Assembly: GCA_000993955.1 (NCBI GenBank)
Contig: LBZW01000001.1
Coordinates: 1-42,447 of the forward strand
Length of the DNA stretch: 42,447 bases
Source: Candidatus Nomurabacteria bacterium GW2011_GWA2_40_9
Lineage (GTDB): Bacteria; Patescibacteriota; Minisyncoccia; Phycocordibacterales; UBA9973
Direction: 5' to 3'
The position numbers and the translations under genes are program-made. Below, in pieces: positions 1 through 38,019 of the stretch; within the stretch, counting starts at the first letter, position 1, and every line of letters begins with the position of its first letter. The notes beneath the pieces are model-generated. The model was given only the letters and a program-made list of their open reading frames with translations. It did no database searches and was not told the DNA's origin.

Positions 1-485
1 CAGGCATAGTTGCCTTGTACTCCTTTAGTTACTTTCCATGTGGTTTCATCGTAATGTTGAGCAAATTGTTTCTGGATTCTCACTTTCAGCCTTTCATATT
101 CAGGTCGTAAGCTATTTGCTTCCTTTTCAAGTATTTTCTGTATTTCGCCTTGTGAGATATTGATTTGATAGATGTCTTTGATATTGTCTTCAATTTGTTG
201 GTATGAAAGTCTAAGAATGATGGAAAGGTAGCAGATATATTTCCTGAGCTTTACTCCGATGATGCATCGAATTGATGGTAAAGATATTGCACTTCTCCAT
301 TTGTTACATTTTTCGCAGTAACCCTGCTCAACAGTATGCTTGATTGCTTCCTTTTGATTATCGAGGACTATGTCTTCCTCATAGTAGATGACGATCTTTT
401 TCCTAGTTAGTTTTGTATCACAGGTGGAACAGTTATCAATTGGATGATTTTCAATCCTAGTGATTTCAGCAGGTATTGGTCTTTG
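1..485 (-). pseudogene. IS66-family transposase fragment, N-terminally truncated and running off the left edge
   Basis: Absent from the ORF track (no ATG). The minus-strand frame is open from 485 to 1 and reads ..RPIPAEITRIENHPIDNCSTCDTKL..GYCEKCNKW..LSYQQIEDNIKDIYQINISQGEIQKILEKEANSLRPEYERLKVRIQKQFAQHYDETTWKV. This is a CxxC..CxxC zinc finger, then an HTH-like segment, then the H.DET entry into the DDE core, as in IS66 TnpC. The N-terminal coiled-coil part is missing and the frame abuts the RAYT cassette. Confidence 0.55.
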
Positions 486-542: not shown

Positions 543-1217
543 ATGCCACGCAATGCAAGAGTTGACGTAGGAGGAGAAATTTATCATGTAATCAATCGTG
601 CAAACGGTTGTCTTCAGATATTTAACAAAGATGAAGATTATGAACTATTTGAAGAATTACTTTTTGAAACAAAAGAACTTTTTCATATGCGTATATTAGC
701 CTATTGTTTGATGCCAAATCATTTTCATTTAGTCCTATATCCTAAAAATGACGGGGATATGGGTTTATTTATGCATCGATTGAGTAATTCTCATACCAGA
801 AAAGTGCACGCACTCACAAATACAAATGGTAGTGGGCATTTGTATCAAGGTCGCTACAAATCTTTTCTCGTAGATAAAGAAAATTATCTTTCAGCGATTA
901 TTAAATATGTTGAGCGTAATCCAGTGCGAGCTAAGCTCTCTAAACTTTGTGAGGATTGGAAGTGGGGTAGTGCTTGGCTGCGTATCAGTGGAAAACTTGA
1001 GCAACATAAATTACTTGATCAAAAATCTTTTGATCTTCCAGATAATTATATTAAATGGATTAATATTTCTGAAGATGAAGATTTATTGAAAAATATTCGT
1101 GTTTCAGTAAAAAAAGGTGTTCCATATGGTAAAGAAAAATGGGTGGATAATATGGTATTGAAATACAAACTTGAATCAACCCTAAGATCCCAAGGAAGAC
1201 CAAGGAAAGATAGATGA
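543..1217 (+). CDS. IS200/RAYT-like HUH tyrosine (Y1) transposase
   Basis: 224 aa. HUH motif in LMPNHFHLVLYP; conserved YHVINRAN N-terminus; GHLYQGRYKS; catalytic-Tyr helix IIKYVERNPVRAKL. This pattern matches COG1943 / Y1_Tnp REP-associated transposases. The gene is flanked by inverted repeats. Confidence 0.8.
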   Translation: MPRNARVDVGGEIYHVINRANGCLQIFNKDEDYELFEELLFETKELFHMRILAYCLMPNHFHLVLYPKNDGDMGLFMHRLSNSHTRKVHALTNTNGSGHLYQGRYKSFLVDKENYLSAIIKYVERNPVRAKLSKLCEDWKWGSAWLRISGKLEQHKLLDQKSFDLPDNYIKWINISEDEDLLKNIRVSVKKGVPYGKEKWVDNMVLKYKLESTLRSQGRPRKDR

Positions 1218-1295
1218 TAGAAAAGAATGGTGGCTGTCCCCTTATTTCCCAAGGAAAGATAGATGATAGAAAAGAATGGTGGCTGTCCCCTTATT
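1200..1295 (+). repeat. 47-bp perfect direct duplication (1200-1246 and 1249-1295) carrying the right inverted repeat twice
   Basis: CCAAGGAAAGATAGATGATAGAAAAGAATGGTGGCTGTCCCCTTATT occurs twice with period 49. The first copy contains the transposase stop codon (1215-1217). AATGGTGGCTGTCCCCTT at 1226-1243 and 1275-1292 is the reverse complement of 492-509. Confidence 0.9.
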
Positions 1296-1330
1296 CCCCT
1301 TATTCCCTTATTCCTTATTCTCCTTATTCC
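1287..1330 (+). repeat. Degenerate tandem repeat C(2-4)TTATT, about 5.5 units
   Basis: CCCCTTATT CCCCTTATT CCCTTATT CCTTATT CTCCTTATT CC read directly. It starts inside the end of the second 47-bp copy. Confidence 0.85.
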
Positions 1331-1945: not shown

Positions 1946-2908
1946 ATGAAGACAGAACAGAAGACAGTACACACAAGTGTTCTTTTAAAAGAAAGTATAG
2001 ACGGGCTGAATCTTAAGAAAAATCCCCAAAGCCTTGCTTCTGGAAATAATCTTGTAGTAATAGACGGTACATTTGGCGGAGGGGGACACAGTAGTGAGAT
2101 ATTAAAAAATTACCAAAATGTAAAAGTCATCGGTATAGATCAAGACAAGAGTGCATGGGAAAAGGCAAAAGATAAATTTGTAGGGTTGGAAGACAGGATT
2201 ACTTTTGTAAATGGAAATTTTCGAGACATAAAAGAAATTGTGGAAACTTCGGGTGTTGGACACCGAGATTCCAGGTGTCCAACACCCGAAGTAGATGGAG
2301 TATTACTTGATTTGGGACTCAGTTCTGATCAATTAGAGAATTCTGGTAGGGGATTTACTTTCATGAAAGATGAGCCGTTGTTTATGACTATGAAAGCAAA
2401 TCCAACATCTTCAGATTTAACGGCACAAGATATAGTAAATAATTGGAGCGAAGAAAATATAGCAAATATTATATATGGTTATGGTGAGGAGAGGTTTAGT
2501 AGAAGAATAGCAAGGCGGATAGTAGAAGCGAGGAAGGCAAAAGAGATAAAAACTACTTTTGAACTCGTAGAGATTATAAAAAATGCAGTGCCAAAAAAGT
2601 TTCAAAAAGGCAAGATAAATCCGGCTACAAAGACTTTTCAGGCATTGCGTATGGCAGTAAATGATGAATTGAATACTCTAGAGTCTGGGCTAAGTGGAGG
2701 GTTTGATATTTTAAAAAGCGGAGGCAGGCTGTCAGTCATATCATTCCACAGTCTCGAAGACCGGATAGTAAAGAATTTTTATAAAAAGAAAGTAGTAGAA
2801 GGCAAGGCAAAATTAATAAATAAGAAAATAATAACAGCAGGAAGTGAAGAATTGAAAACAAATAATAGATCAAGGAGTGCAAAATTAAGAATAATAGAGA
2901 AAATATGA
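1946..2908 (+). CDS. rsmH: 16S rRNA (cytosine1402-N4)-methyltransferase RsmH
   Basis: HTSVLLKESI, DGTFGGGGHS, VDGVLLDLGLSSDQLE, ISFHSLEDRIVK, NNRSRSAKLR. Start at the in-frame ATG 1946. Confidence 0.92.
   Translation: MKTEQKTVHTSVLLKESIDGLNLKKNPQSLASGNNLVVIDGTFGGGGHSSEILKNYQNVKVIGIDQDKSAWEKAKDKFVGLEDRITFVNGNFRDIKEIVETSGVGHRDSRCPTPEVDGVLLDLGLSSDQLENSGRGFTFMKDEPLFMTMKANPTSSDLTAQDIVNNWSEENIANIIYGYGEERFSRRIARRIVEARKAKEIKTTFELVEIIKNAVPKKFQKGKINPATKTFQALRMAVNDELNTLESGLSGGFDILKSGGRLSVISFHSLEDRIVKNFYKKKVVEGKAKLINKKIITAGSEELKTNNRSRSAKLRIIEKI
2024..2043. repeat. Palindromic element family C/G, single unit, in frame in rsmH
   Basis: CCCCAAAGCCTTGCTTCTGG is near-identical to the left arm of the atpG copy at 26613-26632. 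The preceding AAAATCCCCAAAGC also matches 26633-26646. Encodes NPQSLASG. Confidence 0.7.
2246..2292. repeat. Palindromic element family A, inverted dimer, in frame in rsmH
   Basis: ACTTCGGGTGTTGGACACC (2246-2264), 9-nt loop, GGTGTCCAACACCCGAAGT (2274-2292): a perfect 19-bp stem. Encodes ..TSGVGHRDSRCPTPEV.. just before the conserved DGVLLDLG. Confidence 0.9.
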
Positions 2909-7618: not shown

Positions 7619-7648
7619 TTTTACATAAAATTACACTTTATTTCTCGA

Positions 7649-7690
7649 TTACCTAATCAAAACGGTCGTAAAAGTTAGGTAATTTGTTTT
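7649..7690 (+). repeat. 42-bp hairpin repeat, copy 1
   Basis: TTACCTAATCAAAACGGTCGTAAAAGTTAGGTAATTTGTTTT. An 8-bp stem TTACCTAA/TTAGGTAA with an 18-nt loop, followed by a T-tract. Lies in the divergent rmuC / PaaX-like intergenic region. Confidence 0.9.
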
Positions 7691-7710: not shown

Positions 7711-8316
7711 ATGGGAATTTTGGAGAAAGAAATAAAAATTAAAGATAAACGCAAAAATATTCAGAAAATAATTTTAAATACTATTTTTGCAGCTGGGATA
7801 CTTGGTGTGATGGTAGTAGCACCAAATGTTTTATCAGTTATAAAACAAATAGAAAAAGGAATAAAAAGAAAAAAGAATTTAAAATATTCTATCAATAGTT
7901 CTTTTGTACGACTCAGAGAGAAAGGGCTTATTGAAATAATAGAAGTAAATGGGAAAAGAGTTGCAAGGATAACACAAAAAGGGGAGTCGAAGTTGGATTT
8001 CTTGGATAGACATAATTTTAAATTAAAAATTCCAAAGAAATGGGATGGTCGTTGGAGAGTGGTGATATTTGATATAAAGGAAAGCAAAAAGAGAATAAGA
8101 GCACTTTTGAGGGTTACGCTTTCGCAGATTGGCTTTATTAGATTGCAAAATAGCGTTTGGGTTTATCCATATGATTGCGAGGACTTGGTCTCATTACTTA
8201 AGGCAGATTTTAAAATAGGTAGTGAGATTTTATATATGATAGTAGAAAAACTTGAAAATGATTGGTCCTTACGTAAAAAATTTAATTTACCTAATTCTGA
8301 CGGTCGTAAAAGTTAG
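7711..8316 (+). CDS. Membrane-anchored wHTH + PaaX-C/Cas2-fold domain protein
   Basis: N-terminal TM (IILNTIFAAGILGVMVVAPNVL); winged-helix-like segment (SFVRLREKGLIEIIEVNGKRVARITQKGESKL); WDGRWRVVIFDIKESKKRIRALLRVTLSQIGFIRLQNSVWVYPYD, which matches the PaaX C-terminal / Cas2-like beta-alpha-beta-beta-alpha-beta signature. Start taken at ATG 7711. The last 10 codons and the stop lie inside repeat copy 2. Confidence 0.5.
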   Translation: MGILEKEIKIKDKRKNIQKIILNTIFAAGILGVMVVAPNVLSVIKQIEKGIKRKKNLKYSINSSFVRLREKGLIEIIEVNGKRVARITQKGESKLDFLDRHNFKLKIPKKWDGRWRVVIFDIKESKKRIRALLRVTLSQIGFIRLQNSVWVYPYDCEDLVSLLKADFKIGSEILYMIVEKLENDWSLRKKFNLPNSDGRKS

Positions 8317-8328
8317 GTAATTTGTTTT
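8287..8328 (+). repeat. 42-bp hairpin repeat, copy 2
   Basis: TTACCTAATTCTGACGGTCGTAAAAGTTAGGTAATTTGTTTT. Differs from copy 1 only at 4 loop positions. Lies between the convergent PaaX-like and exonuclease genes. Confidence 0.9.
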
Positions 8329-12188: not shown

Positions 12189-13700
12189 ATGCAAGAAAAA
12201 AATTCTGAAAAATATTACACCACCATCGGGCTTGAAATACACGCAGAATTGAAGACAACTACAAAGATGTTTTGTAGTTGTAGAAATAACCCTGATGAAA
12301 CAAAACCAAATACAAATATCTGCCCTGTGTGCATGGCGCACCCTGGGGCATTGCCTGTAATAAATAAAAAAGCAGTTGAGAATGTGATAAGAGTTGGTCT
12401 GGCTATCGGTGCAGAGATTGCAGATTTTTCAGAATTTGATAGAAAGAATTATTTTTATCCCGACATCCCAAAAGGGTACCAGATTTCTCAATATAAATAC
12501 CCAATAGTAAAAGGTGGCAAACTAGCTGGTATGGATATCACTCGTATTCACTTAGAGGAAGATACAGCGAATAACAAACACCTGTCGGGTGTTGGACACC
12601 CGGAAATTCAGGACGAGTATTCACTCATTGACTTCAATCGTGCTGGCGTGCCACTGATGGAGCTTGTGACCGAGGCGCATACTTTTGAGACGAGTGAGGA
12701 GGCAGCAAAAGTTGCGAGTAATTTTGCAAAAGAATATCAGCTCCTCCTGCAGTATATAGATGCCTCAGAAGCGAATATGGAAAAAGGGGAGATGCGAGTG
12801 GAAGCAAATGTATCTGTCTCACCTGATAAAGATAAGAAATGGACTGCCTATGTGGAAGTAAAAAATTTAAACTCTTTCAAGAGCGTAGAAAAAGCTATCA
12901 AATATGAAGTAGAGCGAATGATAGAACTTTTTGAAGAAGGCAAAGAGAGTGAAATAGTAAAAGAAACTCGTGGCTTCGATGAAGCAAAGCAGAGGACTGT
13001 GTCTCAGCGTAAAAAGGAATCCAGTGAAGACTACAGATACTTCCCAGACCCAGACCTACCAAAGATGAAACTTCATGAAGCGTTTGATTTGGAAAAAGTG
13101 AAGCAAGAGTTACCTGAGTTGCCCATGCAAAAGCGCGTGCGATATAAGAATGATTTTGGAATAAAAGATGAAGATATAGAAATTTATATAAATGATAAAG
13201 AGCTTGCAAAATGGTTTGAAGAAGTTGCAAATCTTTTGTTTTCTCCCCCTGCCAGAGGGGGAGTGTCCGAAGGACGAGGGGGTGGGAGTGAAAAAATTAA
13301 AACAGCATCAAATTATATCACATCAGATTATTTGGGTATAAAGAAGTTCCAGCCAGAGGCAAGGCCTCTGGCTGCGACGAATTTTGCCGAGCTTATAAAT
13401 TTGGTTACAGAAAATAAAATCTCTTCTCGCGCTACAAAGGACATACTTGCGATGATAGTGATAGATGATGCGTCTCCATTAAAAATAGCAACAGAGAAAA
13501 ATTTGTTACAAAAAAATGATGAAGGCGAACTAAAAGGTATAGTAGAAAAAATACTTGCAGAAAATCAGCAAGTAGTGGCTACATACAAAGGCGGTAAAGA
13601 AAATGCTCTTATGTCCCTAGTGGGTAAAATAATAAAAGAAACAAATGGCTCTGCCAATCCACAGGTGGTAATTAAATTATTAAAAGAGTTGATAAAATAA
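12189..13700 (+). CDS. gatB: Asp/Glu-tRNA(Asn/Gln) amidotransferase subunit B
   Basis: GLEIHAEL, CPVCMAHPGALPV, RKNYFYPD, HLEEDT, FNRAGVPLMELVTE, and a C-terminal YqeY-like tail. TATAAT at 12175-12180 lies 8 nt before the ATG. Confidence 0.95.
   Translation: MQEKNSEKYYTTIGLEIHAELKTTTKMFCSCRNNPDETKPNTNICPVCMAHPGALPVINKKAVENVIRVGLAIGAEIADFSEFDRKNYFYPDIPKGYQISQYKYPIVKGGKLAGMDITRIHLEEDTANNKHLSGVGHPEIQDEYSLIDFNRAGVPLMELVTEAHTFETSEEAAKVASNFAKEYQLLLQYIDASEANMEKGEMRVEANVSVSPDKDKKWTAYVEVKNLNSFKSVEKAIKYEVERMIELFEEGKESEIVKETRGFDEAKQRTVSQRKKESSEDYRYFPDPDLPKMKLHEAFDLEKVKQELPELPMQKRVRYKNDFGIKDEDIEIYINDKELAKWFEEVANLLFSPPARGGVSEGRGGGSEKIKTASNYITSDYLGIKKFQPEARPLAATNFAELINLVTENKISSRATKDILAMIVIDDASPLKIATEKNLLQKNDEGELKGIVEKILAENQQVVATYKGGKENALMSLVGKIIKETNGSANPQVVIKLLKELIK
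12585..12603. repeat. Palindromic element family A, single unit, in frame in gatB
   Basis: TCGGGTGTTGGACACCCGG: a 7-bp stem. Matches the reverse complement of the intergenic copy 32881-32899 at 18 of 19 positions. Encodes LSGVGHPE between HLEEDT and the conserved YSLIDFNR. Confidence 0.85.
13243..13283. repeat. Palindromic element family E, in frame in gatB
   Basis: CTCCCCC-TGCCAGA-GGGGGAG-TG-TCC-GAA-GGA-CG-AGGGGGT. Same 41-nt architecture as 15025-15065 on the other strand. Encodes SPPARGGVSEGRGGGS. Confidence 0.85.
13350..13374. repeat. Palindromic element family C, single unit, in frame in gatB
   Basis: CAGCCAGAGGC-AAG-GCCTCTGGCTG: an 11-bp perfect stem. Encodes QPEARPLAA. Confidence 0.9.
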
Positions 13701-14656: not shown

Positions 14657-16528
14657 ATGGAAGAAATTTTAAAAAAAGATTTAAAACAAGAAATACAAAA
14701 ATTTTTTAAAGGGGATGTGGAAGATGGGGAAGAGACTCTCTCAAAGTATTCTAGGGATGCGAGTATTTTTGAAATTCGACCACAGTTGGTGCTTTTTCCA
14801 AAAGATACAGAAGATGTGAAAAGTTTAGTAAAGTGGGTCAGTGAAAATTGCGGTAGGCAAGACCTACCACAATTATCTATTACTTGTAGATGTGCAGGGA
14901 CGGATATGTCAGGCGGTGCTATAGGTGAATCTATTATCTTGGATTTTACGAGGTACATGAATAAGTTGATTGCATTTTCTCCCCTCCTTGTGGAGGAGGG
15001 GGTAGGGGGTGGTGATTCAAAATTACCCCCTCGCCCTTCGGGCACTCCCCCTTATCAAGGGGGAGAGGAAAACACAATCACGGTTGAACCTGGTATGTTT
15101 TATAGAGATTTTGAAAAAATAACTTTATCTAAAGGAATGATTTTGCCTTGTTATACTGCATCGAAAAGTTTAAATGCTATGGGTGGTATGTATGGAAATA
15201 ATTCTGCCGGAGAGCGAACACTCAAATACGGCAAAACTGACAATTATATCTTGGAATCAAAAGTAGTTTTCGGAGACGGGAATGAATATGTGGTGAAGCC
15301 ACTGACGGAAGAAGAATTGAACAAAAAAATATCTCAGAATGATTTTGAGGGAAATATTTATAAAAATATTTATGAGCTTATACAAAATAACCAAGAAGAA
15401 ATAAAAAATGCCAAGCCAAAAGTACACAAAAATTCTGCTGGGTATTATGTATGGAACGTGATGGGAGTAAATACGCAGGATGTGAAAAATTCTGCCGTCT
15501 TTACCCTTCCCGGAGTACCGGGTGGGACCTACGCCGATCAGGATTTTTCACATCCTGCGTATTTTGATTTAAACAAACTTCTCGTCGGCTCTCAGGGCAC
15601 ACTTGGCATAGCGACAGAAATTACTTTTAAATTAGTGCCAAATCCAAAGTACTCAAAACTTGTAGCAGTATTTATGAATGACCTGGCACCACTTGGGAAT
15701 CTCGTAGATGAGATTTTGGAATTAAATCCAGAGACGTTGGAAGCTTATGATGACAAGACTATGAAGCTCGCTGTCAGGTTTTTCCCAGATTTTTTGAAAA
15801 ATAAAGGGTTTATAGGCATGATAAAATTTATGTGGAGCTTCTTACCAGAACTCGGGATGACGATTACGGGAGGATTCCCTAAGCTTATTCTTCTGGCTGA
15901 ATTTGCCGGAGAAAATAATCTCGAAGTGCAGATAAAATGCAAAGCCCTGCAAGAAAAAATAAAACATTTTAACCTAAAAGTTCATATCACACATTCTACT
16001 GCTGAATCAAATAAATATTGGGACATTAGACGGGAGAGTTTTGCATTACTTCGCAAGCATGTAGCCGGCAAGCACACTGCGCCATTCATAGATGACATCA
16101 TAGTTCGTCCGGAATTCTTGCCGAAGTTTATTCCCCAGTTGAATGAGATCTTGAGAAAATATGATCTGACTTATACTATCGCAGGGCATGCAGGAGATGG
16201 AAATTTTCACATCATACCGCTCATGAATTTCTCTAGGCCTGATATGGGGCAGATAATTATGGAGCTATCAGAAAAGGTATATGACTTGGTTTTGAAATAC
16301 GAAGGCTCTATCACAGCAGAGCACAATGACGGCATTATCCGTACGCCATTCTTACAAAAAATGTACGGTGAGAAAATAATAGAAATATTTAAAGAAATAA
16401 AAAACATCTTTGATCTAAAATATATTTTGAACCCTGGCAAAAAAGTCCCCATAGAAGATGGCCAAGGCTCTAAAGAATTTATATTATCTCATATATATAA
16501 GGAGCATACGACGGTACACAAAGTCTAA
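14657..16528 (+). CDS. FAD-binding oxidoreductase (GlcD / D-lactate dehydrogenase family)
   Basis: N-terminal FAD_binding_4-like region (RCAGTDMSGGAIG), LVGSQGTLGIATEITFKL, and C-terminal HAGDGNFHI..GSITAEHNDG motifs. Carries two inserted repeat elements. Confidence 0.8.
   Translation: MEEILKKDLKQEIQKFFKGDVEDGEETLSKYSRDASIFEIRPQLVLFPKDTEDVKSLVKWVSENCGRQDLPQLSITCRCAGTDMSGGAIGESIILDFTRYMNKLIAFSPLLVEEGVGGGDSKLPPRPSGTPPYQGGEENTITVEPGMFYRDFEKITLSKGMILPCYTASKSLNAMGGMYGNNSAGERTLKYGKTDNYILESKVVFGDGNEYVVKPLTEEELNKKISQNDFEGNIYKNIYELIQNNQEEIKNAKPKVHKNSAGYYVWNVMGVNTQDVKNSAVFTLPGVPGGTYADQDFSHPAYFDLNKLLVGSQGTLGIATEITFKLVPNPKYSKLVAVFMNDLAPLGNLVDEILELNPETLEAYDDKTMKLAVRFFPDFLKNKGFIGMIKFMWSFLPELGMTITGGFPKLILLAEFAGENNLEVQIKCKALQEKIKHFNLKVHITHSTAESNKYWDIRRESFALLRKHVAGKHTAPFIDDIIVRPEFLPKFIPQLNEILRKYDLTYTIAGHAGDGNFHIIPLMNFSRPDMGQIIMELSEKVYDLVLKYEGSITAEHNDGIIRTPFLQKMYGEKIIEIFKEIKNIFDLKYILNPGKKVPIEDGQGSKEFILSHIYKEHTTVHKV
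14979..15065. repeat. Composite palindromic insertion: E-prime unit (14979-15012) plus family E unit in reverse orientation (15025-15065), in frame in the FAD oxidase
   Basis: CTCCCCTCC-TTGT-GGAGGAGGGG-GTAGGGGGTGG resembles the atpD copy. The reverse complement of 15025-15065 is CTCCCCC-TTGATAA-GGGGGAG-TG-CCC-GAA-GGG-CG-AGGGGGT. Encodes SPLLVEEGVGGGDSKLPPRPSGTPPYQGGE. Confidence 0.85.
15469..15564. repeat. 96-nt MITE-like element with 22-bp perfect terminal inverted repeats, in frame in the FAD oxidase
   Basis: AAATACGCAGGATGTGAAAAAT (15469-15490) and ATTTTTCACATCCTGCGTATTT (15543-15564) are exact reverse complements. The centre carries the GC hairpin CCCGG-AGTA-CCGGG. 96 nt equals 32 codons. 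Confidence 0.85.
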
Positions 16529-21708: not shown

Positions 21709-21742
21709 AAACAAAAACACCTCGTACGAGGTGTTTTTGTTT
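21709..21742 (+). terminator. Intrinsic terminator after the RRM gene
   Basis: AAACAAAAACACCTCG-TA-CGAGGTGTTTTTGTTT: a 16-bp stem with a GC core, flanked by A and T runs (symmetrical). Confidence 0.8.
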
Positions 21743-22329: not shown

Positions 22330-23221
22330 TTTAGAACATAATGGAGAGGTAGTAGAGGAGACAAGTCACGAAGTGACTATCTATGCAGAGCCGATTTTTC
22401 ATGTGGGTAATTTTGCTATCACAAACTCGCTTTTTACTACTTGGCTTGCAGTGCTTTTGATTGCTATATTTTCTCTCGTTATCCGATTAAATCTCAAAAA
22501 AGTTCCAGGGAAATTACAAAATATTTTTGAAGTTATGCTCGAGGGTGCTATGTCTCTCACTGATCAAGTCACAAATGACAGAAAAATAACGAATAAAATT
22601 TTTCCTTTAGTATTTTCTCTTTTTGTATTTATTTTAATAAATAATTGGATCGGGCTTTTGCCTTTTATTTCTGCTATTGGTTTTACGGTTGTTGAAAGTG
22701 GGCAAAATGTTTTTGTTCCTCTTTTTCGTGCGGGGACTGCGGATATCAACACCACCCTTGCTTTGTCGCTTATGATCATTGTCGCTTCAAATCTATTTGG
22801 CATACTCACTATCGGGCTCTGGAAACTTTTTAATAAATATGTTAATCTAAAAGCACTTGGTGAGATATTTACCAAGTTTAAAAAGGACAAGACTGTGGTC
22901 ATCGTATCTCCAATTTCTGTGTTTGTAGGGTTGCTTGAACTCATAGGAGAAATGGCAAAAATCGCATCGCTTTCTTTTCGTCTTTTTGGTAATGTTTTTG
23001 CAGGAGAAGTATTGCTCGCTTCTATGTCGGCAATATTTTTGTATATTTTACCGGGGCCGTTTTTGTTCCTTGAAGTTTTCATAGGACTCATTCAAGCATT
23101 GATATTTTCTTTGCTTGGGGCTGTGTATTTTACCATCGCAGCGCAGGATCATAATGAACACGAGGAGTATGAAACGGTGAGAGCTTTAGACTCTCATGAG
23201 AGTCTAAAGCTCTCACCGTAA
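22319..23221 (+). CDS. atpB: F0F1 ATP synthase subunit a
   Basis: Multi-TM, with the conserved Arg helix LSFRLFGNVFAGE. The C-terminal 15 aa are encoded by palindrome B. Confidence 0.9.
   Translation: MANNLEHNGEVVEETSHEVTIYAEPIFHVGNFAITNSLFTTWLAVLLIAIFSLVIRLNLKKVPGKLQNIFEVMLEGAMSLTDQVTNDRKITNKIFPLVFSLFVFILINNWIGLLPFISAIGFTVVESGQNVFVPLFRAGTADINTTLALSLMIIVASNLFGILTIGLWKLFNKYVNLKALGEIFTKFKKDKTVVIVSPISVFVGLLELIGEMAKIASLSFRLFGNVFAGEVLLASMSAIFLYILPGPFLFLEVFIGLIQALIFSLLGAVYFTIAAQDHNEHEEYETVRALDSHESLKLSP
23175..23218. repeat. Palindromic element family B forming the 3' end of atpB
   Basis: CGGTGAGAGCTTTAGACTCTC-AT-GAGAGTCTAAAGCTCTCACCG: a 44-nt perfect palindrome ending 0 nt before the TAA stop. 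Encodes TVRALDSHESLKLSP. Confidence 0.92.
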
Positions 23222-25968: not shown

Positions 25969-26916
25969 ATGACCGGAACAAAAGAAATTAAAAGAAGAAT
26001 AAAGAGTGTGAAGAACACAAAGAAGATAACCAAGGCGATGGAGCTAGTGGCTGCTTCGAAGATGAAGCGCGCAGTTTCTAAGACTCTCGCATCTCGTGTG
26101 TATGCAAATTATTCTTGGGAGCTTTTGACTTCTGTTTCAGCAAAACTTGAAGAGGTGACACACCCATTTTTTACTCCTGCCCGCAATGCTACGCATAGCG
26201 TTGCAGGTGGGGAAAATAAAACAGGTAAAACTTTGATAGTTCTCATCACTTCAAACAGAGGTTTGTGCGGAGCGTACAATTCTCAAGTCATCAAGAAAAC
26301 TATTTTAAAACTAAAATCTTTAGAAAATGAAGAAGTTGATTTCATAACCCTTGGCAAAAAAGGCGACGGCACTATGCGCAGAGTAGGGCAGAATATCGTG
26401 GCATCTTTTATTGAATTGCCAGATATTATTTCTTTATCTGATATCACAGCTGTGTCTAACTTTTTAACTAGTGAATATAAAATAGGAAATTATAAAAAAG
26501 TCTATGTGGCATATACAGACTTTGTATCAGCACTGACTCAAAAAGCACAGATCAGAAAGCTCTTGCCAGTGTCTAAAGAAGAATTGAAAGAAGTAATAGA
26601 CGGTCTAGATTCCCCCAAAGCCTTGCTTTTGGAAAATCCCCAAAGCAAGGCTTTGGGGTCAACATATTTGTTCGAAGGTGATATAAATAAACTCATAGAA
26701 ACGCTGGCAGAAAAACTAGTAAAGATGCAGATATATCAGATGTTGTTAGAGTCCAATGCTTCCGAACAGTCAAGCAGAATGCTTTCAATGAAAAATGCCG
26801 GAGACGCAGCAGGAGAGATGATCAATGATTTGACCTTGGTATTCAACAAAGCAAGACAGGCAAATATTACCAGAGAAATAAGTGAGATTAGTGCCGGTAT
26901 GGCAAGTGTGAGTTGA
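25969..26916 (+). CDS. atpG: F0F1 ATP synthase subunit gamma
   Basis: IKRRIKSVKNTKKITKAMELVAASKM N-terminus and NKARQANITREISEI C-terminus. Contains two inserted palindromes. Confidence 0.95.
   Translation: MTGTKEIKRRIKSVKNTKKITKAMELVAASKMKRAVSKTLASRVYANYSWELLTSVSAKLEEVTHPFFTPARNATHSVAGGENKTGKTLIVLITSNRGLCGAYNSQVIKKTILKLKSLENEEVDFITLGKKGDGTMRRVGQNIVASFIELPDIISLSDITAVSNFLTSEYKIGNYKKVYVAYTDFVSALTQKAQIRKLLPVSKEELKEVIDGLDSPKALLLENPQSKALGSTYLFEGDINKLIETLAEKLVKMQIYQMLLESNASEQSSRMLSMKNAGDAAGEMINDLTLVFNKARQANITREISEISAGMASVS
26176..26212. repeat. Palindromic element family D, in frame in atpG
   Basis: CCTGCCCGCAATGCT-ACGCAT-AGCGTTGCAGGTGGGG. Folds on the sense strand with 14 pairs, 3 of them G-U. 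Encodes PARNATHSVAGGE. Confidence 0.8.
26613..26658. repeat. Palindromic element family C/G, inverted dimer, in frame in atpG
   Basis: CCCCAAAGCCTTGCTTTTGG-AAAATCC-CCAAAGCAAGGCTTTGGGG: a 19-bp stem with one bulged T. Encodes SPKALLLENPQSKALG. Confidence 0.88.
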
Positions 26917-28549: not shown

Positions 28550-29029
28550 ATGTCAAAGCAATTAAAACTAAAAATAGTAACTCCAGAAAAATTGGTTCTA
28601 GAAGAGCTTGTTGATGAAGTGATTATCCCTACTACAGAAGGGGAGATTGCTGTGTTGCCTGAACACATACCTATAGTTGCTGGACTCAAATCAGGAGATG
28701 TTGTCGGCATAGTAAACGGCGAGCATATTCCTTTTGCTGTCGTTGGAGGGTTCGTAGAAGTGAAATATTTACCAGAGGCAAGGCCTCTGTCTGCCAGAGG
28801 CCTTGCCTCTGGTATTACTGAAGTAGTGATTCTCGCTGATTTTGCAGAACATGTATCAGAACTTTCTGATGATGCTGTAACAAAAGCAAAAGCTCGTGCC
28901 GAAGAACTACGCAAACAAGCAGAAAACAAAGAAGTAGTAGACTTTGAACACTTTGAGTCCGAACTCGAGCGCGCTCTAACCAGAGTCAAAATCGCTGACA
29001 AGTGGAGAACTAGAAAGTATAGGAAATAA
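28550..29029 (+). CDS. atpC: F0F1 ATP synthase subunit epsilon
   Basis: LKIVTPEKLV..VIIPTTEGEIAVLPEHIPIVAGLKSG.., GGFVEV.., and a C-terminal helical hairpin. Carries a 15-codon palindrome insertion. Confidence 0.88.
   Translation: MSKQLKLKIVTPEKLVLEELVDEVIIPTTEGEIAVLPEHIPIVAGLKSGDVVGIVNGEHIPFAVVGGFVEVKYLPEARPLSARGLASGITEVVILADFAEHVSELSDDAVTKAKARAEELRKQAENKEVVDFEHFESELERALTRVKIADKWRTRKYRK
28770..28814. repeat. Palindromic element family C, inverted dimer, exactly 15 codons, in frame in atpC
   Basis: TACCAGAGGCAAGGCCTCTG-TCTGC-CAGAGGCCTTGCCTCTGGTA: a 20-bp perfect stem. Each arm contains the gatB unit CCAGAGGC-AAG-GCCTCTG. Encodes (Y)LPEARPLSARGLASG(I). Confidence 0.92.
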
Positions 29030-29794: not shown

Positions 29795-31777
29795 TTACAG
29801 CAAATTTTCTGGATCTATCAGCACTCTAAAATTAGAAGATATTTTATTTAAAGACAAAAGTTTTCTATAGAGGTCTTCCTCGATAGAAGCAGATGCAGAG
29901 AGTATAGGCAAAGACCATTTTTTAGGATCTGCTTTTATTAACATATTTACTGTATTTTTGTCTTTACTACTCTTTCTGAAACCACTGTAAAATACAGGGT
30001 TGTAATCTTTGAATATTTCACTCAAATTTTCTTTTGTCTTAGATGAATCTGTGTTGCTTTCTAAATAAGTAACTTTGATAAATCTAGAATATGGGGGATA
30101 GAGCATAGATTTTCTGTCTTCGAGTTCAGTCCTGATAAATTCTAATAGATTACTATTTTTTATGGCAAGCAGTGCCGAGTCTTTGTCGTTCTTTGTTTGG
30201 ATTATCAATTTATTTTTTGTTTTAGAAAGCATCAGGAGTATGAGTTGAATTATTTTTTCACTCATTTTAAAATTTGGGATACTCCAGAGTGAATCAAAAG
30301 AAGCAACGATACAGGTGTCTATTTGGTTTTTCATATAAAAAAGTGCTATCTCTGTGCCTATGAGTATAGTATTTTCTCCTGTCTCATATTCTGTAATTAT
30401 CTTTAGAGCACCCTTGGCTGTCTTTGCTGTGTCTTTGTCTAGTTTTAATATTTTAATGTGATCTAATTTTTCTTTTTTTAATTCTTCATACACTGTATCT
30501 ATACCTATGCCGAGTGGTACCAGATTCCAACTGTCGCATTTTACACATTTAACCTTCGTATTTTTGCTTGTGCCACATCTGTTGCAGACAAATACTCTCT
30601 TTTTTTTGTCTGGAGAGTGGTGCAGGACAACAGGAGTGGAGCATTCATCACAGCTTACTGTTTCTCCGCAATCTCTACATATAGTATAAGTAGCCAGCCC
30701 TTTTCGAAGAGAGAAAATAAAAACTTTCTCTTTTTGTTCTAGAGCACTTTTCAATTCTGCTATAGTTTCAGTCATCAACACCTTAAATTTGTTTTTTCTA
30801 CTCAATATTTCTATTTTTCCATCAAAAGAAATACGAAAAGACATGGGATGAACTTCCCCTAGTCCGTCTATCTCACGCCTAGCTATACTTTCAAAGCGTA
30901 AGAGGCTATCCGCCAAGATAAATTTTGCATTTATTTTAGAAGCAAAAATTTCAGTAAAAATTCGTAAATCAAAGTAGGGTTTGGCTATCATTTTATACCC
31001 ATTTCCGCTCTCGTGTTCTAAAATAATTGTTTCTATATCTCTTCTGTCTATAGATAGGTATGGGGCAGTACCGATAATCAAAATTGGATGCTCTTCTTTT
31101 ATGATATTTTCTATCTTTTCCATTTGTTTCTTTGCACTATACCCTCCATGGATAGAAATAGTAAATTGTTCAATACCCTTGGACAGGTACCCATACCAGT
31201 CGTCTATGTCATTTTTAGTGGGTAGTACTATAAAAACTGATTTTTTTTTAGCAAAATTACTTCTGATTAGGATTTTATAATAATCTATACGTTCTTCCAG
31301 TTTAGCTTGAAACAATAATTTTTCATTTTTTATCAGTGAGAGCTTTAGACTCTCTCTAGAGTCTAAAGCTCTCACTGAAAGTTCTTCTTTGTTTTGTTCA
31401 TTTTTTAATAGCTTGTTTTTAATTAATTCAGCAAATCTATCGTATTCTTCTTTTAAAATATTTGGGATGAGAGATGTGACCCCGTCGCTGTTGTTTTGAA
31501 CAAAATATTTACTACACAAAAACACAGATTCTAGAAATTCAGATTTAAAAATAGAGCCCTCTTTTATACTAAGTATTTTCTTTAGATTAAAATCCATGTC
31601 TTTTATATTTCTCTTTGCGTCAGTTACGTCTTCGGTAAAGACTACTAACCCCAACATGTTTTTATTGCGGAGAGATATAGTAACGATACTCCCATTTGGT
31701 ATGTCTTTTATTGAAAAATAGGTTAAATTTTCTTTCCAAAGTCCTTTTCTGAATGGGATTACCGTAACTATTTTCAT
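29795..31777 (-). CDS. priA: PriA-like primosomal protein N' with degenerate ATPase motifs
   Basis: PriA architecture with the Cys-rich Zn module (CRDCGETVSCDECSTPVV..CNRCG..CVKCDS). The expected Walker A, DExH and motif VI positions read LFQAKLEERIDYY, ILEHESGNGYK and LLMLSKTKNK. Confidence 0.75.
   Translation of the reverse strand: MKIVTVIPFRKGLWKENLTYFSIKDIPNGSIVTISLRNKNMLGLVVFTEDVTDAKRNIKDMDFNLKKILSIKEGSIFKSEFLESVFLCSKYFVQNNSDGVTSLIPNILKEEYDRFAELIKNKLLKNEQNKEELSVRALDSRESLKLSLIKNEKLLFQAKLEERIDYYKILIRSNFAKKKSVFIVLPTKNDIDDWYGYLSKGIEQFTISIHGGYSAKKQMEKIENIIKEEHPILIIGTAPYLSIDRRDIETIILEHESGNGYKMIAKPYFDLRIFTEIFASKINAKFILADSLLRFESIARREIDGLGEVHPMSFRISFDGKIEILSRKNKFKVLMTETIAELKSALEQKEKVFIFSLRKGLATYTICRDCGETVSCDECSTPVVLHHSPDKKKRVFVCNRCGTSKNTKVKCVKCDSWNLVPLGIGIDTVYEELKKEKLDHIKILKLDKDTAKTAKGALKIITEYETGENTILIGTEIALFYMKNQIDTCIVASFDSLWSIPNFKMSEKIIQLILLMLSKTKNKLIIQTKNDKDSALLAIKNSNLLEFIRTELEDRKSMLYPPYSRFIKVTYLESNTDSSKTKENLSEIFKDYNPVFYSGFRKSSKDKNTVNMLIKADPKKWSLPILSASASIEEDLYRKLLSLNKISSNFRVLIDPENLL
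31333..31378. repeat. Palindromic element family B, in frame in priA
   Basis: TCAGTGAGAGCTTTAGACTCT-CTCT-AGAGTCTAAAGCTCTCACTGA: a 21-bp perfect stem. The core GTGAGAGCTTTAGACTCT is identical to the atpB copy. On the minus strand it encodes SVRALDSRESLKLSL. Confidence 0.92.
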
Positions 31778-36813: not shown

Positions 36814-36869
36814 TCCACATGTCGGACATAGGGTCGGTCATTTTTTTTAGTCCCTATGTCCGACATGTG
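36814..36869. repeat. 56-nt palindrome (family F) in the perM-cysS spacer
   Basis: CCACATGTCGGACATAGGG (36814-36832), 18-nt loop, CCCTATGTCCGACATGTGG (36851-36869): a perfect 19-bp stem. Each arm contains the near-palindrome ATGTC(G/C)GACAT. Confidence 0.9.
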
Positions 36870-36876
36870 GTCTTAT

Positions 36877-37890: not shown

Positions 37891-37933
37891 GATGATTATA
37901 TTATATCAGAATATTTTTATAAAAAAAGCAAAT

Positions 37934-37967
37934 TTACCCAACTCTGACGGTCGTAAAAGTTAGGTAA
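37934..37967 (+). repeat. 42-bp hairpin repeat, copy 3 (diverged)
   Basis: TTACCCAACTCTGACGGTCGTAAAAGTTAGGTAA, 44 bp upstream of the perM start on the minus strand. This is the same relative position as copy 1 to rmuC. Confidence 0.85.
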
Positions 37968-38019
37968 TATTTTAAATACAAAAATTTGCATAAAAAACAG
38001 TTTTTGCTATACTTTAGTT

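What the first reader, a model, noticed from the sequence alone, without database searches (positions are those of the whole stretch)
15469..15564. 96-nt MITE-like element with 22-bp perfect terminal inverted repeats inside the FAD-oxidase CDS
AAATACGCAGGATGTGAAAAAT (15469-15490) and its exact reverse complement (15543-15564) flank a 52-nt centre containing the GC hairpin CCCGG-AGTA-CCGGG. The total is 96 nt, or 32 codons, and is open in frame (..VNTQDVKNSAVFTLPGVPGGTYADQDFSHPAYF..). A 22-bp perfect inverted repeat within a coding region is very unlikely by chance. Unlike families A-E, the arms are AT-rich and only the core is GC-rich, so this looks like a different, TIR-bearing class. Together with 14979-15065 this one gene carries about 60 inserted codons.
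Basis: seen in the sequence. Interest (0 to 1): 0.66.

Follow-up and report, generated by a model that had tools for sequence, protein, structure and literature searches.

The report
In-frame palindromic insert with site-specific stem
The 96-base hairpin inside this enzyme gene is one copy of a small selfish DNA palindrome found in-frame in many essential genes of Patescibacteria; only its 64-base centre is shared between copies, while the outer stem is unique to each site yet stays perfectly paired.

Summary
In detail: 15469-15490 and 15543-15564 are perfect reverse complements (26 bp with one T·G), unique in the window and far beyond chance.

The segment is a real insertion in a Nomurabacteria FAD-linked oxidase. 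Several orthologues lack it, and AlphaFold models it as disordered coil.

It is not a classical MITE. Only the central 64 nt (15485-15548) is a repeated family. I found over 100 distinct copies, about 80% deep inside long ORFs of at least 11 unrelated housekeeping genes (LeuRS, LigA, Pol I, UvrA/C/D, HolB, RluA and others), in both orientations and several frames.

The outer 16 nt of each "TIR" is unique to each site but complementary within each copy. There is no target-site duplication of 4 nt or more, and no partner element.

Against the closest relative, the arms differ at 7 of 20 positions, all compensated, at about the neutral rate. Wobble mismatches show no strand bias.

Best reading: a Rickettsia-RPE-like selfish palindrome, translated as a surface loop. 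Its stem is probably kept perfect at the DNA level by arm-to-arm copying (template switching), not by a transposase or RNA-level selection. How the core moves is unknown.

I found no published description of this in Patescibacteria.

The parts
14657..16528 (+). Host gene: FAD-linked oxidase (GlcD/D-lactate dehydrogenase-like), 623 aa, Candidatus Nomurabacteria/Paceibacteria type
   Evidence: ORF. Pfam PF01565 (residues 42-209) and PF02913 (330-595). Homologue names.
15469..15564 (+). Whole 96-nt hairpin-forming insertion, from the 3rd base of codon V271 to the 2nd base of F303
   Evidence: Absent from orthologues such as P0014, P0018, P0020, P0022, P0023, P0045, P0062, P0109, and from about 24 loci with a 4-9 aa loop here. 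AF2 pLDDT below 50 and coil at residues 272-300.
15469..15484 (+). Left site-specific basal arm, AAATACGCAGGATGTG
   Evidence: Not conserved in any other copy. Complementary to 15549-15564. Differs from the closest relative (L200) by compensated changes.
15485..15548 (+). Conserved 64-nt family core, encoding KNSAVFTLPGVPGGTYADQDF
   Evidence: nhmmer hit at 15485-15548, E = 1.5e-17; E = 1.5e-21 at 15484-15549 with the larger profile. The same core sits in more than 100 copies in other genes.
15485..15494 (+). Left half of the semi-conserved family stem, AAAAATTCTG (family consensus AA(A/G)AATT(C/T)TT)
   Evidence: Alignment A3 columns 19-28. Pairs with 15539-15548.
15504..15526 (+). Apical GC-rich hairpin CCCTTCCCGGAGTACCGGGTGGG (stem 15509-15513 / 15518-15522, loop AGTA)
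   Evidence: Invariant in A3 except that one pair switches G-C to C-G in 7 of 52 copies. T-A and A-T variants occur in other copies. This was the pattern used for the metagenome scan.
15539..15548 (+). Right half of the family stem, CAGGATTTTT; G15542 gives the single T·G mismatch with T15491
15549..15564 (+). Right site-specific basal arm, CACATCCTGCGTATTT; its last bases overlap the conserved host codons Y302-F303 (TAT TTT)
   Evidence: In many copies at this site the stem runs into the conserved F-D-L-N codons.
14979..15065 (+). Second, unrelated GC-rich hairpin insert in the same gene ('site 1'). In other genomes this site holds a copy of the family studied here.
   Evidence: 114-nt span, -65 kcal/mol. 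The closest relative L200 has a completely different insert here. AF2 pLDDT below 50 at residues 111-137.

Best explanation
The 96 nt are one resident copy of a family of small, non-coding, selfish palindromic repeats found in Paceibacteria (Patescibacteria). It behaves like the Rickettsia palindromic elements.

Anatomy, in three layers:
- A conserved apical GC hairpin.
- A semi-conserved AAAATT(C/T)TT stem. Together with the apical hairpin this makes the 64-nt unit that is shared between sites.
- A basal stem of about 8-25 bp that is unique to each site. In the window it is 16 bp.

SHOWN:
- The segment is an insertion.
- The core is repeated in many unrelated, mostly essential genes, in both orientations.
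- It survives only where it keeps the reading frame open.
- In this protein it occupies a loop that is empty in some orthologues and is modelled as disordered.
- The basal arms are Watson-Crick complementary within each copy and unrelated between sites.
- The arms drift at about the neutral rate yet stay paired, while the core changes about four times more slowly.
- Wobble mismatches are equally common on both strands.

INFERRED:
1. The insert is translated and tolerated as a surface loop rather than removed from the mRNA.
2. The stem is kept perfect at the DNA level. Intramolecular template switching, or hairpin-templated repair, at the palindrome copies one arm onto the other (quasipalindrome correction). 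Each new mutation is thus either erased or mirrored. The same process can pull flanking host bases into the stem.
3. Cores are kept alike by continuing copying or gene conversion among dispersed copies.

The step that first places a core at a new site is unknown; no transposase signature was found.
For: Insertion: orthologue alignment A1 and 80 orthologous loci show empty sites of 4-9 aa against 34 aa here. AF2 gives pLDDT below 50 and coil at residues 272-300.

Family:
- An nhmmer profile finds the core at two different sites of this gene in different genomes, and elsewhere.
- 82 of 104 unique copies lie deep inside long ORFs.
- Hosts include HolB-like delta', RluA, LeuRS, UvrC, UvrD, LigA, UvrA, Pol I and a methyltransferase.
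- All reading frames and both orientations are used.

Site-specific arms:
- Pairing within a copy is 11.1 of 14 positions, against 6.8 of 14 between copies. At least 12 of 14 pair in 48% of copies, against 0.2% between copies.
- On A3 (52 copies), 24 of 26 basal-helix pairs change on both sides.
- 398 double-change cells against 143 +/- 9.5 in shuffles (0/500).
- Covariation 0.452, against 0.126 shuffled and at most 0.16 slid.
- L156/L167 carry two copies in one gene with 100% identical cores and unrelated, self-complementary arms.

Maintenance:
- Against L200 (4-fold-site divergence 29%), the arms differ at 7 of 20 positions and all 7 are compensated. An apical C-G to T-A change is compensated too.
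- At the HolB site the arms are recognisably homologous between orthologues, each with a matching partner.
- Across 229 orthologous pairs, arm divergence is 0.54, 4-fold sites 0.65 and core 0.15.

DNA level rather than mRNA level: G·U on the sense strand 32, on the antisense strand 32. Changes that keep a pair through wobble alone are almost absent.

Precedent for the mechanism: template switching creates and maintains perfect hairpins (PMC8794818).
Against: - No enzyme or intermediate was observed, so template switching is inferred only from sequence patterns.
- Selection for a DNA hairpin or cruciform, or for an RNA hairpin on either transcript, cannot be excluded.
- Strong conservation of the core across genomes that are saturated at neutral sites could mean the core has a function I have not identified.
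- All retrieved copies were fished with the apical-hairpin pattern, and many are orthologous, so counts are not independent.
- I could not census the window's own genome; the window holds one copy.
- Translation is inferred from open frames, not from peptides.
- The neutral-rate comparison for moderately diverged pairs rests essentially on one pair, the window against L200.
Confidence: 0.68

Rival explanations
1. Classical MITE: a non-autonomous transposon whose 22-bp terminal inverted repeats are bound by a transposase encoded elsewhere, inserted by cut-and-paste with a target-site duplication.
For: Small, palindromic, repeated, and inserted relative to orthologues. Inner stem bases AAAATT(C/T)TT are family-conserved.
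Against: The outer 16 nt of each arm are site-specific. No direct repeat of 4 nt or more flanks the hairpin in 97 copies; 3-nt repeats were seen 12 times against 3.4 expected, which may reflect non-independent orthologues. No split halves bracket a larger element in 2.3 Mb. The 22-mer is unique in the window.
Confidence: 0.1
2. The basal arms are made once, at insertion, as an inverted copy of the target flank (fold-back synthesis). The many perfect stems reflect repeated recent insertions into a few permissive hot spots rather than long-term maintenance.
For: The same two loops of this gene hold different families, subfamilies and orientations in different genomes, and the site-1 insert differs between the window and its closest relative. 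Stems often run into conserved host codons: FDLN at site 2, WN/SI at site 1. Cores are identical within L156.
Against: Arms at the HolB site and in window versus L200 are homologous between genomes and differ by compensated point changes. That indicates descent with maintenance. Insert lengths fit neither 'one arm new' nor 'both arms new' cleanly.
Confidence: 0.15
3. A functional RNA structure within the mRNA (processing site, translational pause, embedded small RNA), kept by natural selection for base pairing.
For: Strong covariation and a very stable fold. Some intergenic copies are followed by T-runs, like terminators.
Against: No Rfam match beyond generic hairpin noise. The same core sits in unrelated genes in both orientations. 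G·U is not favoured on the sense strand (32 against 32), and wobble pairs are very rare. Arms evolve at about the neutral rate, faster than expected for selected stems. The insert is dispensable in many orthologues.
Confidence: 0.08
4. A lineage-specific protein expansion segment with a function at the protein level, inherited vertically.
For: The peptide KNSxxxTLPGVPGGT is recognisable in many orthologues.
Against: The same DNA is read in other frames and from the other strand in other hosts, giving unrelated peptides. The segment is predicted disordered and is absent from many orthologues.
Confidence: 0.02

Closest known systems
Rickettsia palindromic elements (RPE; Ogata et al. 2000, as cited in PMC3184786)
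   Same: Repeats of about 100 bp that can fold into hairpins. They are inserted in frame inside essential protein-coding genes of a reduced genome and tolerated as extra peptide loops. No transposase is known.
   Different: Different phylum, and no sequence relation was tested. Here only a 64-nt core is shared, and each copy has its own perfectly complementary outer stem that drifts with compensation. From my own knowledge, I am not aware that this has been reported for RPEs.
Bacterial MITEs (Correia, ERIC/IRU, RU-1/2/3, Nezha and others; definition in PMC3184786)
   Same: Small, non-autonomous, able to fold into long stem-loops, sometimes fused in frame to ORFs.
   Different: MITEs are defined by family-conserved TIRs plus direct target duplications. 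Both were tested here and not found.
REP/BIME elements with RAYT transposases (PMC3733652)
   Same: Short GC-rich imperfect palindromes, highly repeated.
   Different: REPs are 20-40 nt, extragenic and carry a GTAG/CGTC tag. This element is mostly intragenic and has no such tag at its ends. Presence of a RAYT was not tested.
Template-switch (quasipalindrome) mutations that create and maintain perfect hairpins (PMC8794818, PMC5453318, PMC3820800)
   Same: Explains perfect stems, multi-base compensated changes arising in one event, and extension of a stem into flanking sequence, without selection.
   Different: Described as a mutational process in rRNA, human and yeast DNA, not as a property of a dispersed repeat family inside bacterial coding genes.
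Mobile GC clusters / palindromic elements of fungal mitochondrial genomes (from my own knowledge; not checked here)
   Same: GC-rich hairpins spreading in a very AT-rich small genome, occasionally in frame inside genes.
   Different: Organellar, with different sequences. Short target duplications have been reported for some classes.

Membership tests
MITE | Terminal inverted repeats conserved across family members (transposase binding sites) | tested here: not met
   The outer 16 nt of each arm differ in every copy. Only the inner AAAATT(C/T)TT is shared.
MITE | Direct target-site duplication flanking the element | tested here: not met
   0 of 97 copies have a flanking direct repeat of 4 nt or more. 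3-nt repeats: 12 observed against 3.4 expected, which may reflect orthologous non-independence.
MITE | Related autonomous IS with the same ends | tested here: inconclusive
   No separated half-elements in 2.3 Mb of held DNA. Whole genomes were not surveyed.
MITE | Small, no transposase gene, multiple dispersed copies | tested here: met
   96 nt; more than 100 distinct copies in at least 11 host gene families across metagenomes. Only one copy in this window.
Rickettsia palindromic elements (RPE) | Palindromic repeat of about 100-150 bp inserted in frame in protein-coding genes | tested here: met
Rickettsia palindromic elements (RPE) | Insert lies in a permissive, surface or disordered part of the host protein | tested here: met
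   The loop between the two Pfam domains is variable or empty in orthologues. AF2 gives pLDDT below 50 and coil. The model is of only moderate quality (mean pLDDT 67).
Rickettsia palindromic elements (RPE) | Sequence homology to RPE-1..8 consensus; Rickettsiales host | not tested
   No RPE consensus was available in the tools. The host here is Patescibacteria, so I claim analogy, not membership.
REP / BIME | 20-40 nt extragenic palindrome with a GTAG or CGTC tag | tested here: not met
   64-96 nt, about 80% intragenic, ends AAAAATTC....
Known structured RNA (Rfam 15) | Match to a covariance model at or near its gathering score | tested here: not met
   Best hit was mir-734 at 24 bits against a gathering score of 100. 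All hits are generic hairpin noise.
Intrinsic terminator-like repeats (SPRITE-like) | GC-rich stem directly followed by a T-run, at 3' ends of genes | tested here: inconclusive
   Some intergenic copies (L007, L015, L017, L058) have stem plus T-run. The window copy is mid-gene, and the scan reports only a weak 6-bp alternative stem.

The most novel reading that the evidence does not exclude
Patescibacteria may harbour a class of self-propagating hairpins that need no transposase. In this reading, a 64-nt palindromic core spreads and is homogenised by replication template switching or gene conversion. The core then builds and perpetually repairs its own long stem out of the flanking host sequence, even inside essential genes. 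That would be a DNA-level mechanism producing textbook 'compensatory covariation' without any selection on structure.
Probability: 0.3. Interest if true: 0.8.

Novelty: new variant of a known kind. Interest (0 to 1): 0.62.

Why it matters
1. Streamlined Patescibacteria genomes of 1 Mb or less carry selfish palindromes inside core replication, repair and translation genes. This matters for annotating these proteins, for predicting their structures and for phylogenetic alignments, where such inserts are homoplasious.
2. The site-specific stems show perfect covariation at roughly the neutral rate with no strand bias. This is a natural example of covariation, the standard evidence for functional RNA structure, arising from a DNA-level process.
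3. With thousands of orthologous filled and empty sites in public metagenomes, the family could serve to measure template-switch or quasipalindrome correction rates in uncultured bacteria.

Tried and rejected
- Rfam scan of 14900-15700: only sub-threshold miRNA-like hairpin noise.
- Viral contig scan with the core pattern: 0 hits.
- Search for target-site duplications: none of 4 nt or more.
- Search for half-elements flanking a larger partner: none.
- Search for further copies or sister subfamilies in the window with three nhmmer profiles: only the known copy.
- Promoter/terminator scan: nothing convincing at the element.
- Sense-strand G·U excess. A first count suggested 107 against 62. It vanished once I restricted to the site-specific arms, removed duplicate arm sequences and folded both strands identically (32 against 32). 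I therefore rejected RNA-level selection as the main force.
- Deciding whether one or both arms are newly inserted, by comparing loop length with hairpin span: inconclusive.
- My first longest-exact-run measure of arm complementarity was blunted by 1-nt register shifts. I replaced it with a register-tolerant count.
- Three literature searches found no description of such elements in Patescibacteria/CPR.
- Chance and assembly artefact were rejected. The structure is internal and in frame, and it recurs in many independent assemblies.
Full report
OBSERVATION. The 22-mer at 15469-15490 and its exact reverse complement at 15543-15564 extend to 26-nt arms with a single T15491·G15542 mismatch. With up to three mismatches the 22-mer occurs nowhere else in the window, and none of 100 shuffles produced a match. 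The region folds at -53.2 kcal/mol (z = -7.3). It lies in an intact 623-aa ORF (14657-16528) with FAD_binding_4 and FAD-oxidase_C domains. Homologue names place it in Candidatus Nomurabacteria / Paceibacteria. Its neighbours are gatB, a class II aldolase, ribosomal protein L25 and a lytic transglycosylase.

IT IS AN INSERTION.
- In an alignment of 33 orthologues (555-637 aa), residues of about 271-302 are absent from several of them. These orthologues have only about 5 residues between WNV and FDLNK.
- Among 80 orthologous loci from reference genomes, about two dozen have a 4-9 aa loop here.
- An AlphaFold model (mean pLDDT 67) gives pLDDT below 50 and no secondary structure at residues 272-300. 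It gives the same at 111-137, the other insert.

IT BELONGS TO A REPEATED FAMILY.
- Many orthologues carry, at this same loop, a related segment encoding KNSSGLTLPGVPGGTHTVQNS.
- The same segment also occurs at a second loop of the gene ('site 1', about residue 120). In the window, site 1 is occupied by an unrelated GC-rich insert at 14979-15065.
- Across all held DNA (2.3 Mb) I found 135 matches, 104 of them unique.
- 82 of the 104 lie at least 60 aa from the 5' end and at least 40 aa from the stop of a long ORF. 15 are intergenic or on short contigs.
- Host ORFs fall into 14 clusters. They include a HolB-like DNA polymerase III delta' subunit, an RluA-type pseudouridine synthase, LeuRS, UvrC, UvrD/PcrA, LigA, UvrA, DNA polymerase I and a SAM methyltransferase.
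- The element is read in different frames and from either strand. This gives unrelated peptides such as NFSSLRPSRSTGWDP, NSEWRKSHPVIGEGSSQRNF and FFYARGSQPVLGEGRSAKK.
- That rules out a protein-level origin. It fits a filter that keeps only frame-preserving, stop-free insertions.
- The window itself holds one copy.

ANATOMY. Every copy folds into one long hairpin with three layers.
1. An apical hairpin, CCC-TT-CCCGG-AGTA-CCGGG-T-GGG. It is almost invariant, except that the fourth stem pair is found as G-C, C-G, T-A or A-T.
2. A semi-conserved stem, AA(A/G)AATT(C/T)TT. With the internal loops and the apical hairpin it completes a 64-nt core (window 15485-15548).
3. A basal stem of about 8-25 bp whose sequence is unique to each insertion site.

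Quantitatively:
- The 14 site-specific positions pair within a copy at 11.1 of 14, against 6.8 of 14 when arms of different copies are combined. At least 12 pair in 48% of copies, against 0.2%.
- On a gap-free alignment of 52 copies, 24 of the 26 basal-helix pairs show changes on both sides.
- There are 398 double-change cells against 143 +/- 9.5 in shuffles (0/500).
- The covariation score is 0.452, against 0.126 shuffled and at most 0.16 for slid partners.
- All four Watson-Crick pairs occur at most arm positions.

The clearest single case is L156 (the same contig recurs as L167). It has two copies 480 bp apart in one gene with 100% identical 64-nt cores. Their arms are unrelated, but each pair of arms is self-complementary.

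No direct repeat of 4 nt or more flanks the hairpins, and no half-elements bracket anything larger.

HOW THE ARMS EVOLVE.
- The closest relative (P0002 = L200, 86% aa identity) differs from the window at 29% of 4-fold degenerate sites outside the inserts.
- Its arms (AATGCAGGGTACAGAGAATTC / GAATTCTCTGTACCCTGCATT) are a perfect 21-bp pair.
- They differ from the window's arms at 7 of 20 aligned positions. All seven changes are mirrored on the other arm.
- The apical stem also carries a mirrored C-G to T-A change.
- In the same comparison, the site-1 insert is a completely different element, so turnover is fast.
- At the HolB site the left arms of different genomes are visibly homologous: GCAAACTTGTA, GCAGGTTTATA, GCAGATTTGTA, GTAAATTTCTA, GCAAGTTACTA. 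Each has the matching right arm. This shows vertical inheritance with paired change.
- Over 229 orthologous pairs, mostly saturated, mean divergence is 0.65 at 4-fold sites, 0.54 per arm position and only 0.15 in the core.
- So the arms are free to drift but not free to unpair. The core is either constrained or repeatedly overwritten.

DNA OR RNA?
- If pairing were selected in the mRNA, G·U should be tolerated on the sense strand and A·C should not.
- A first count suggested such an excess. It disappeared when I restricted to the site-specific arms, removed duplicate arm sequences and treated both strands identically: 32 G·U on the sense strand against 32 on the antisense strand.
- Pairs kept through wobble alone are almost absent in A3.
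- Add the neutral-rate drift, the use of both orientations, the presence in unrelated genes and the dispensability in orthologues. Together these point to a DNA-level process.

MECHANISM (inference).
- The simplest process that yields perfect, site-specific, neutrally drifting stems is copying of one arm from the other. This could be intramolecular template switching or hairpin-templated repair at a palindrome, that is, quasipalindrome correction.
- This process has been shown to create and maintain perfect hairpins elsewhere (PMC8794818; also PMC5453318 and PMC3820800).
- About 10% of arm positions are mismatched at any time. This would imply that a mismatch is resolved after roughly 5% neutral divergence. 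That figure is a rough estimate.
- The same process can extend a stem into the flanks. This fits the observation that stems often include conserved host codons (FDLN at site 2, WN/SI at site 1), with the variable side of the loop complementary to them.
- Identical cores within a genome, together with core conservation across genomes, suggest ongoing copying or ectopic gene conversion among copies.
- Remnants such as L015 site 1, L028 and L035 suggest that elements are lost by internal deletion.
- I could not determine how a core first arrives at a new site. A variant in which the arms are made once, at insertion, by fold-back copying of the target remains possible. It fits the recurrent use of the same loops by different families and orientations.

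COMPARISON WITH KNOWN SYSTEMS.
- The element works like the Rickettsia palindromic elements: in-frame, hairpin-forming repeats in essential genes of a reduced genome (Ogata 2000, via PMC3184786).
- It fails the two defining tests of a MITE, family-conserved TIRs and a target-site duplication (definition in PMC3184786).
- It does not look like a REP (PMC3733652) and matches no Rfam family.
- Three full-text searches found no description of such elements in Patescibacteria. Absence from that library is not proof of novelty.
- From my own knowledge, I am not aware that the site-specific, concertedly evolving stem has been reported for RPEs or MITEs.

CAVEATS.
- All metagenomic copies were retrieved with a pattern for the apical hairpin, so its conservation is partly built in.
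- Many copies are orthologous rather than independent.
- ORFs are stop-to-stop frames, not gene calls.
- A3 contains only the window's subfamily in the commonest register (79 of 97 copies share that register).
- The window's own genome could not be censused.
- Translation and the template-switch mechanism are inferred, not observed.

Noticed in passing
window 14979-15065 (and 13242-13283): A second, GC-rich hairpin insert in the same oxidase gene (114-nt span, -65 kcal/mol). Its right half is 83% complementary to a 42-nt segment inside gatB, so the same GC-rich family sits in both genes in opposite orientations. The closest relative (L200) has a wholly different insert at this site.
   Followed up: partly
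window 13353-13375, 28770-28814: A CCAGAGGCAAGGCCTCTGG palindrome family. One copy is in gatB. A 20-bp perfect hairpin lies inside the ATP synthase epsilon ORF (28550-29029).
   Followed up: no
window 23174-23219 and 31333-31378: Two copies of a palindrome of about 45 nt (GTGAGAGCTTTAGACTCTC...), with perfect arms of 23 and 21 bp. One is at the very 3' end of the ATP synthase A-chain ORF; the other is inside a 660-aa minus-strand ORF with no Pfam match.
   Followed up: no
window 2246-2292, 26613-26658, 36815-36870, 21709-21742: Further perfect or near-perfect 17-20 bp hairpins: inside rsmH/mraW, inside ATP synthase gamma, in an intergenic gap, and near the end of a short ORF. Hairpin inserts in housekeeping genes look like a general feature of this genome.
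   Followed up: partly
window 1200-1297 and 480-514: A 49-nt unit duplicated in tandem (98% identical), with an inverted partial copy about 700 nt upstream.
   Followed up: no
window 7637-7688, 8275-8326, 37922-37973: Three copies of a 52-nt motif containing the hairpin TTTACCTAA...GACGGTCGTAAAAG...TTAGGTAAT. It may be a conserved regulatory or terminator motif.
   Followed up: no
L018 10772-10942; L134 site 2: At the same loop of the oxidase, two different hairpin elements sit side by side, giving loops of 57 and 63 aa. The site accepts repeated insertions.
   Followed up: partly
L140 5795-8713 (LeuRS): This leucyl-tRNA synthetase carries, besides the palindromic insert, an internal DUF559 / restriction-endonuclease-like domain at residues 324-400.
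   Followed up: no
L015 site 1, L028 and L035 site 2: Short loops such as WNRNLKNSYS, IKNQNSKNFSDSDF and VENSSEKNFK look like remnants left after internal deletion of the core. Some apparently empty sites may therefore be footprints.
   Followed up: partly
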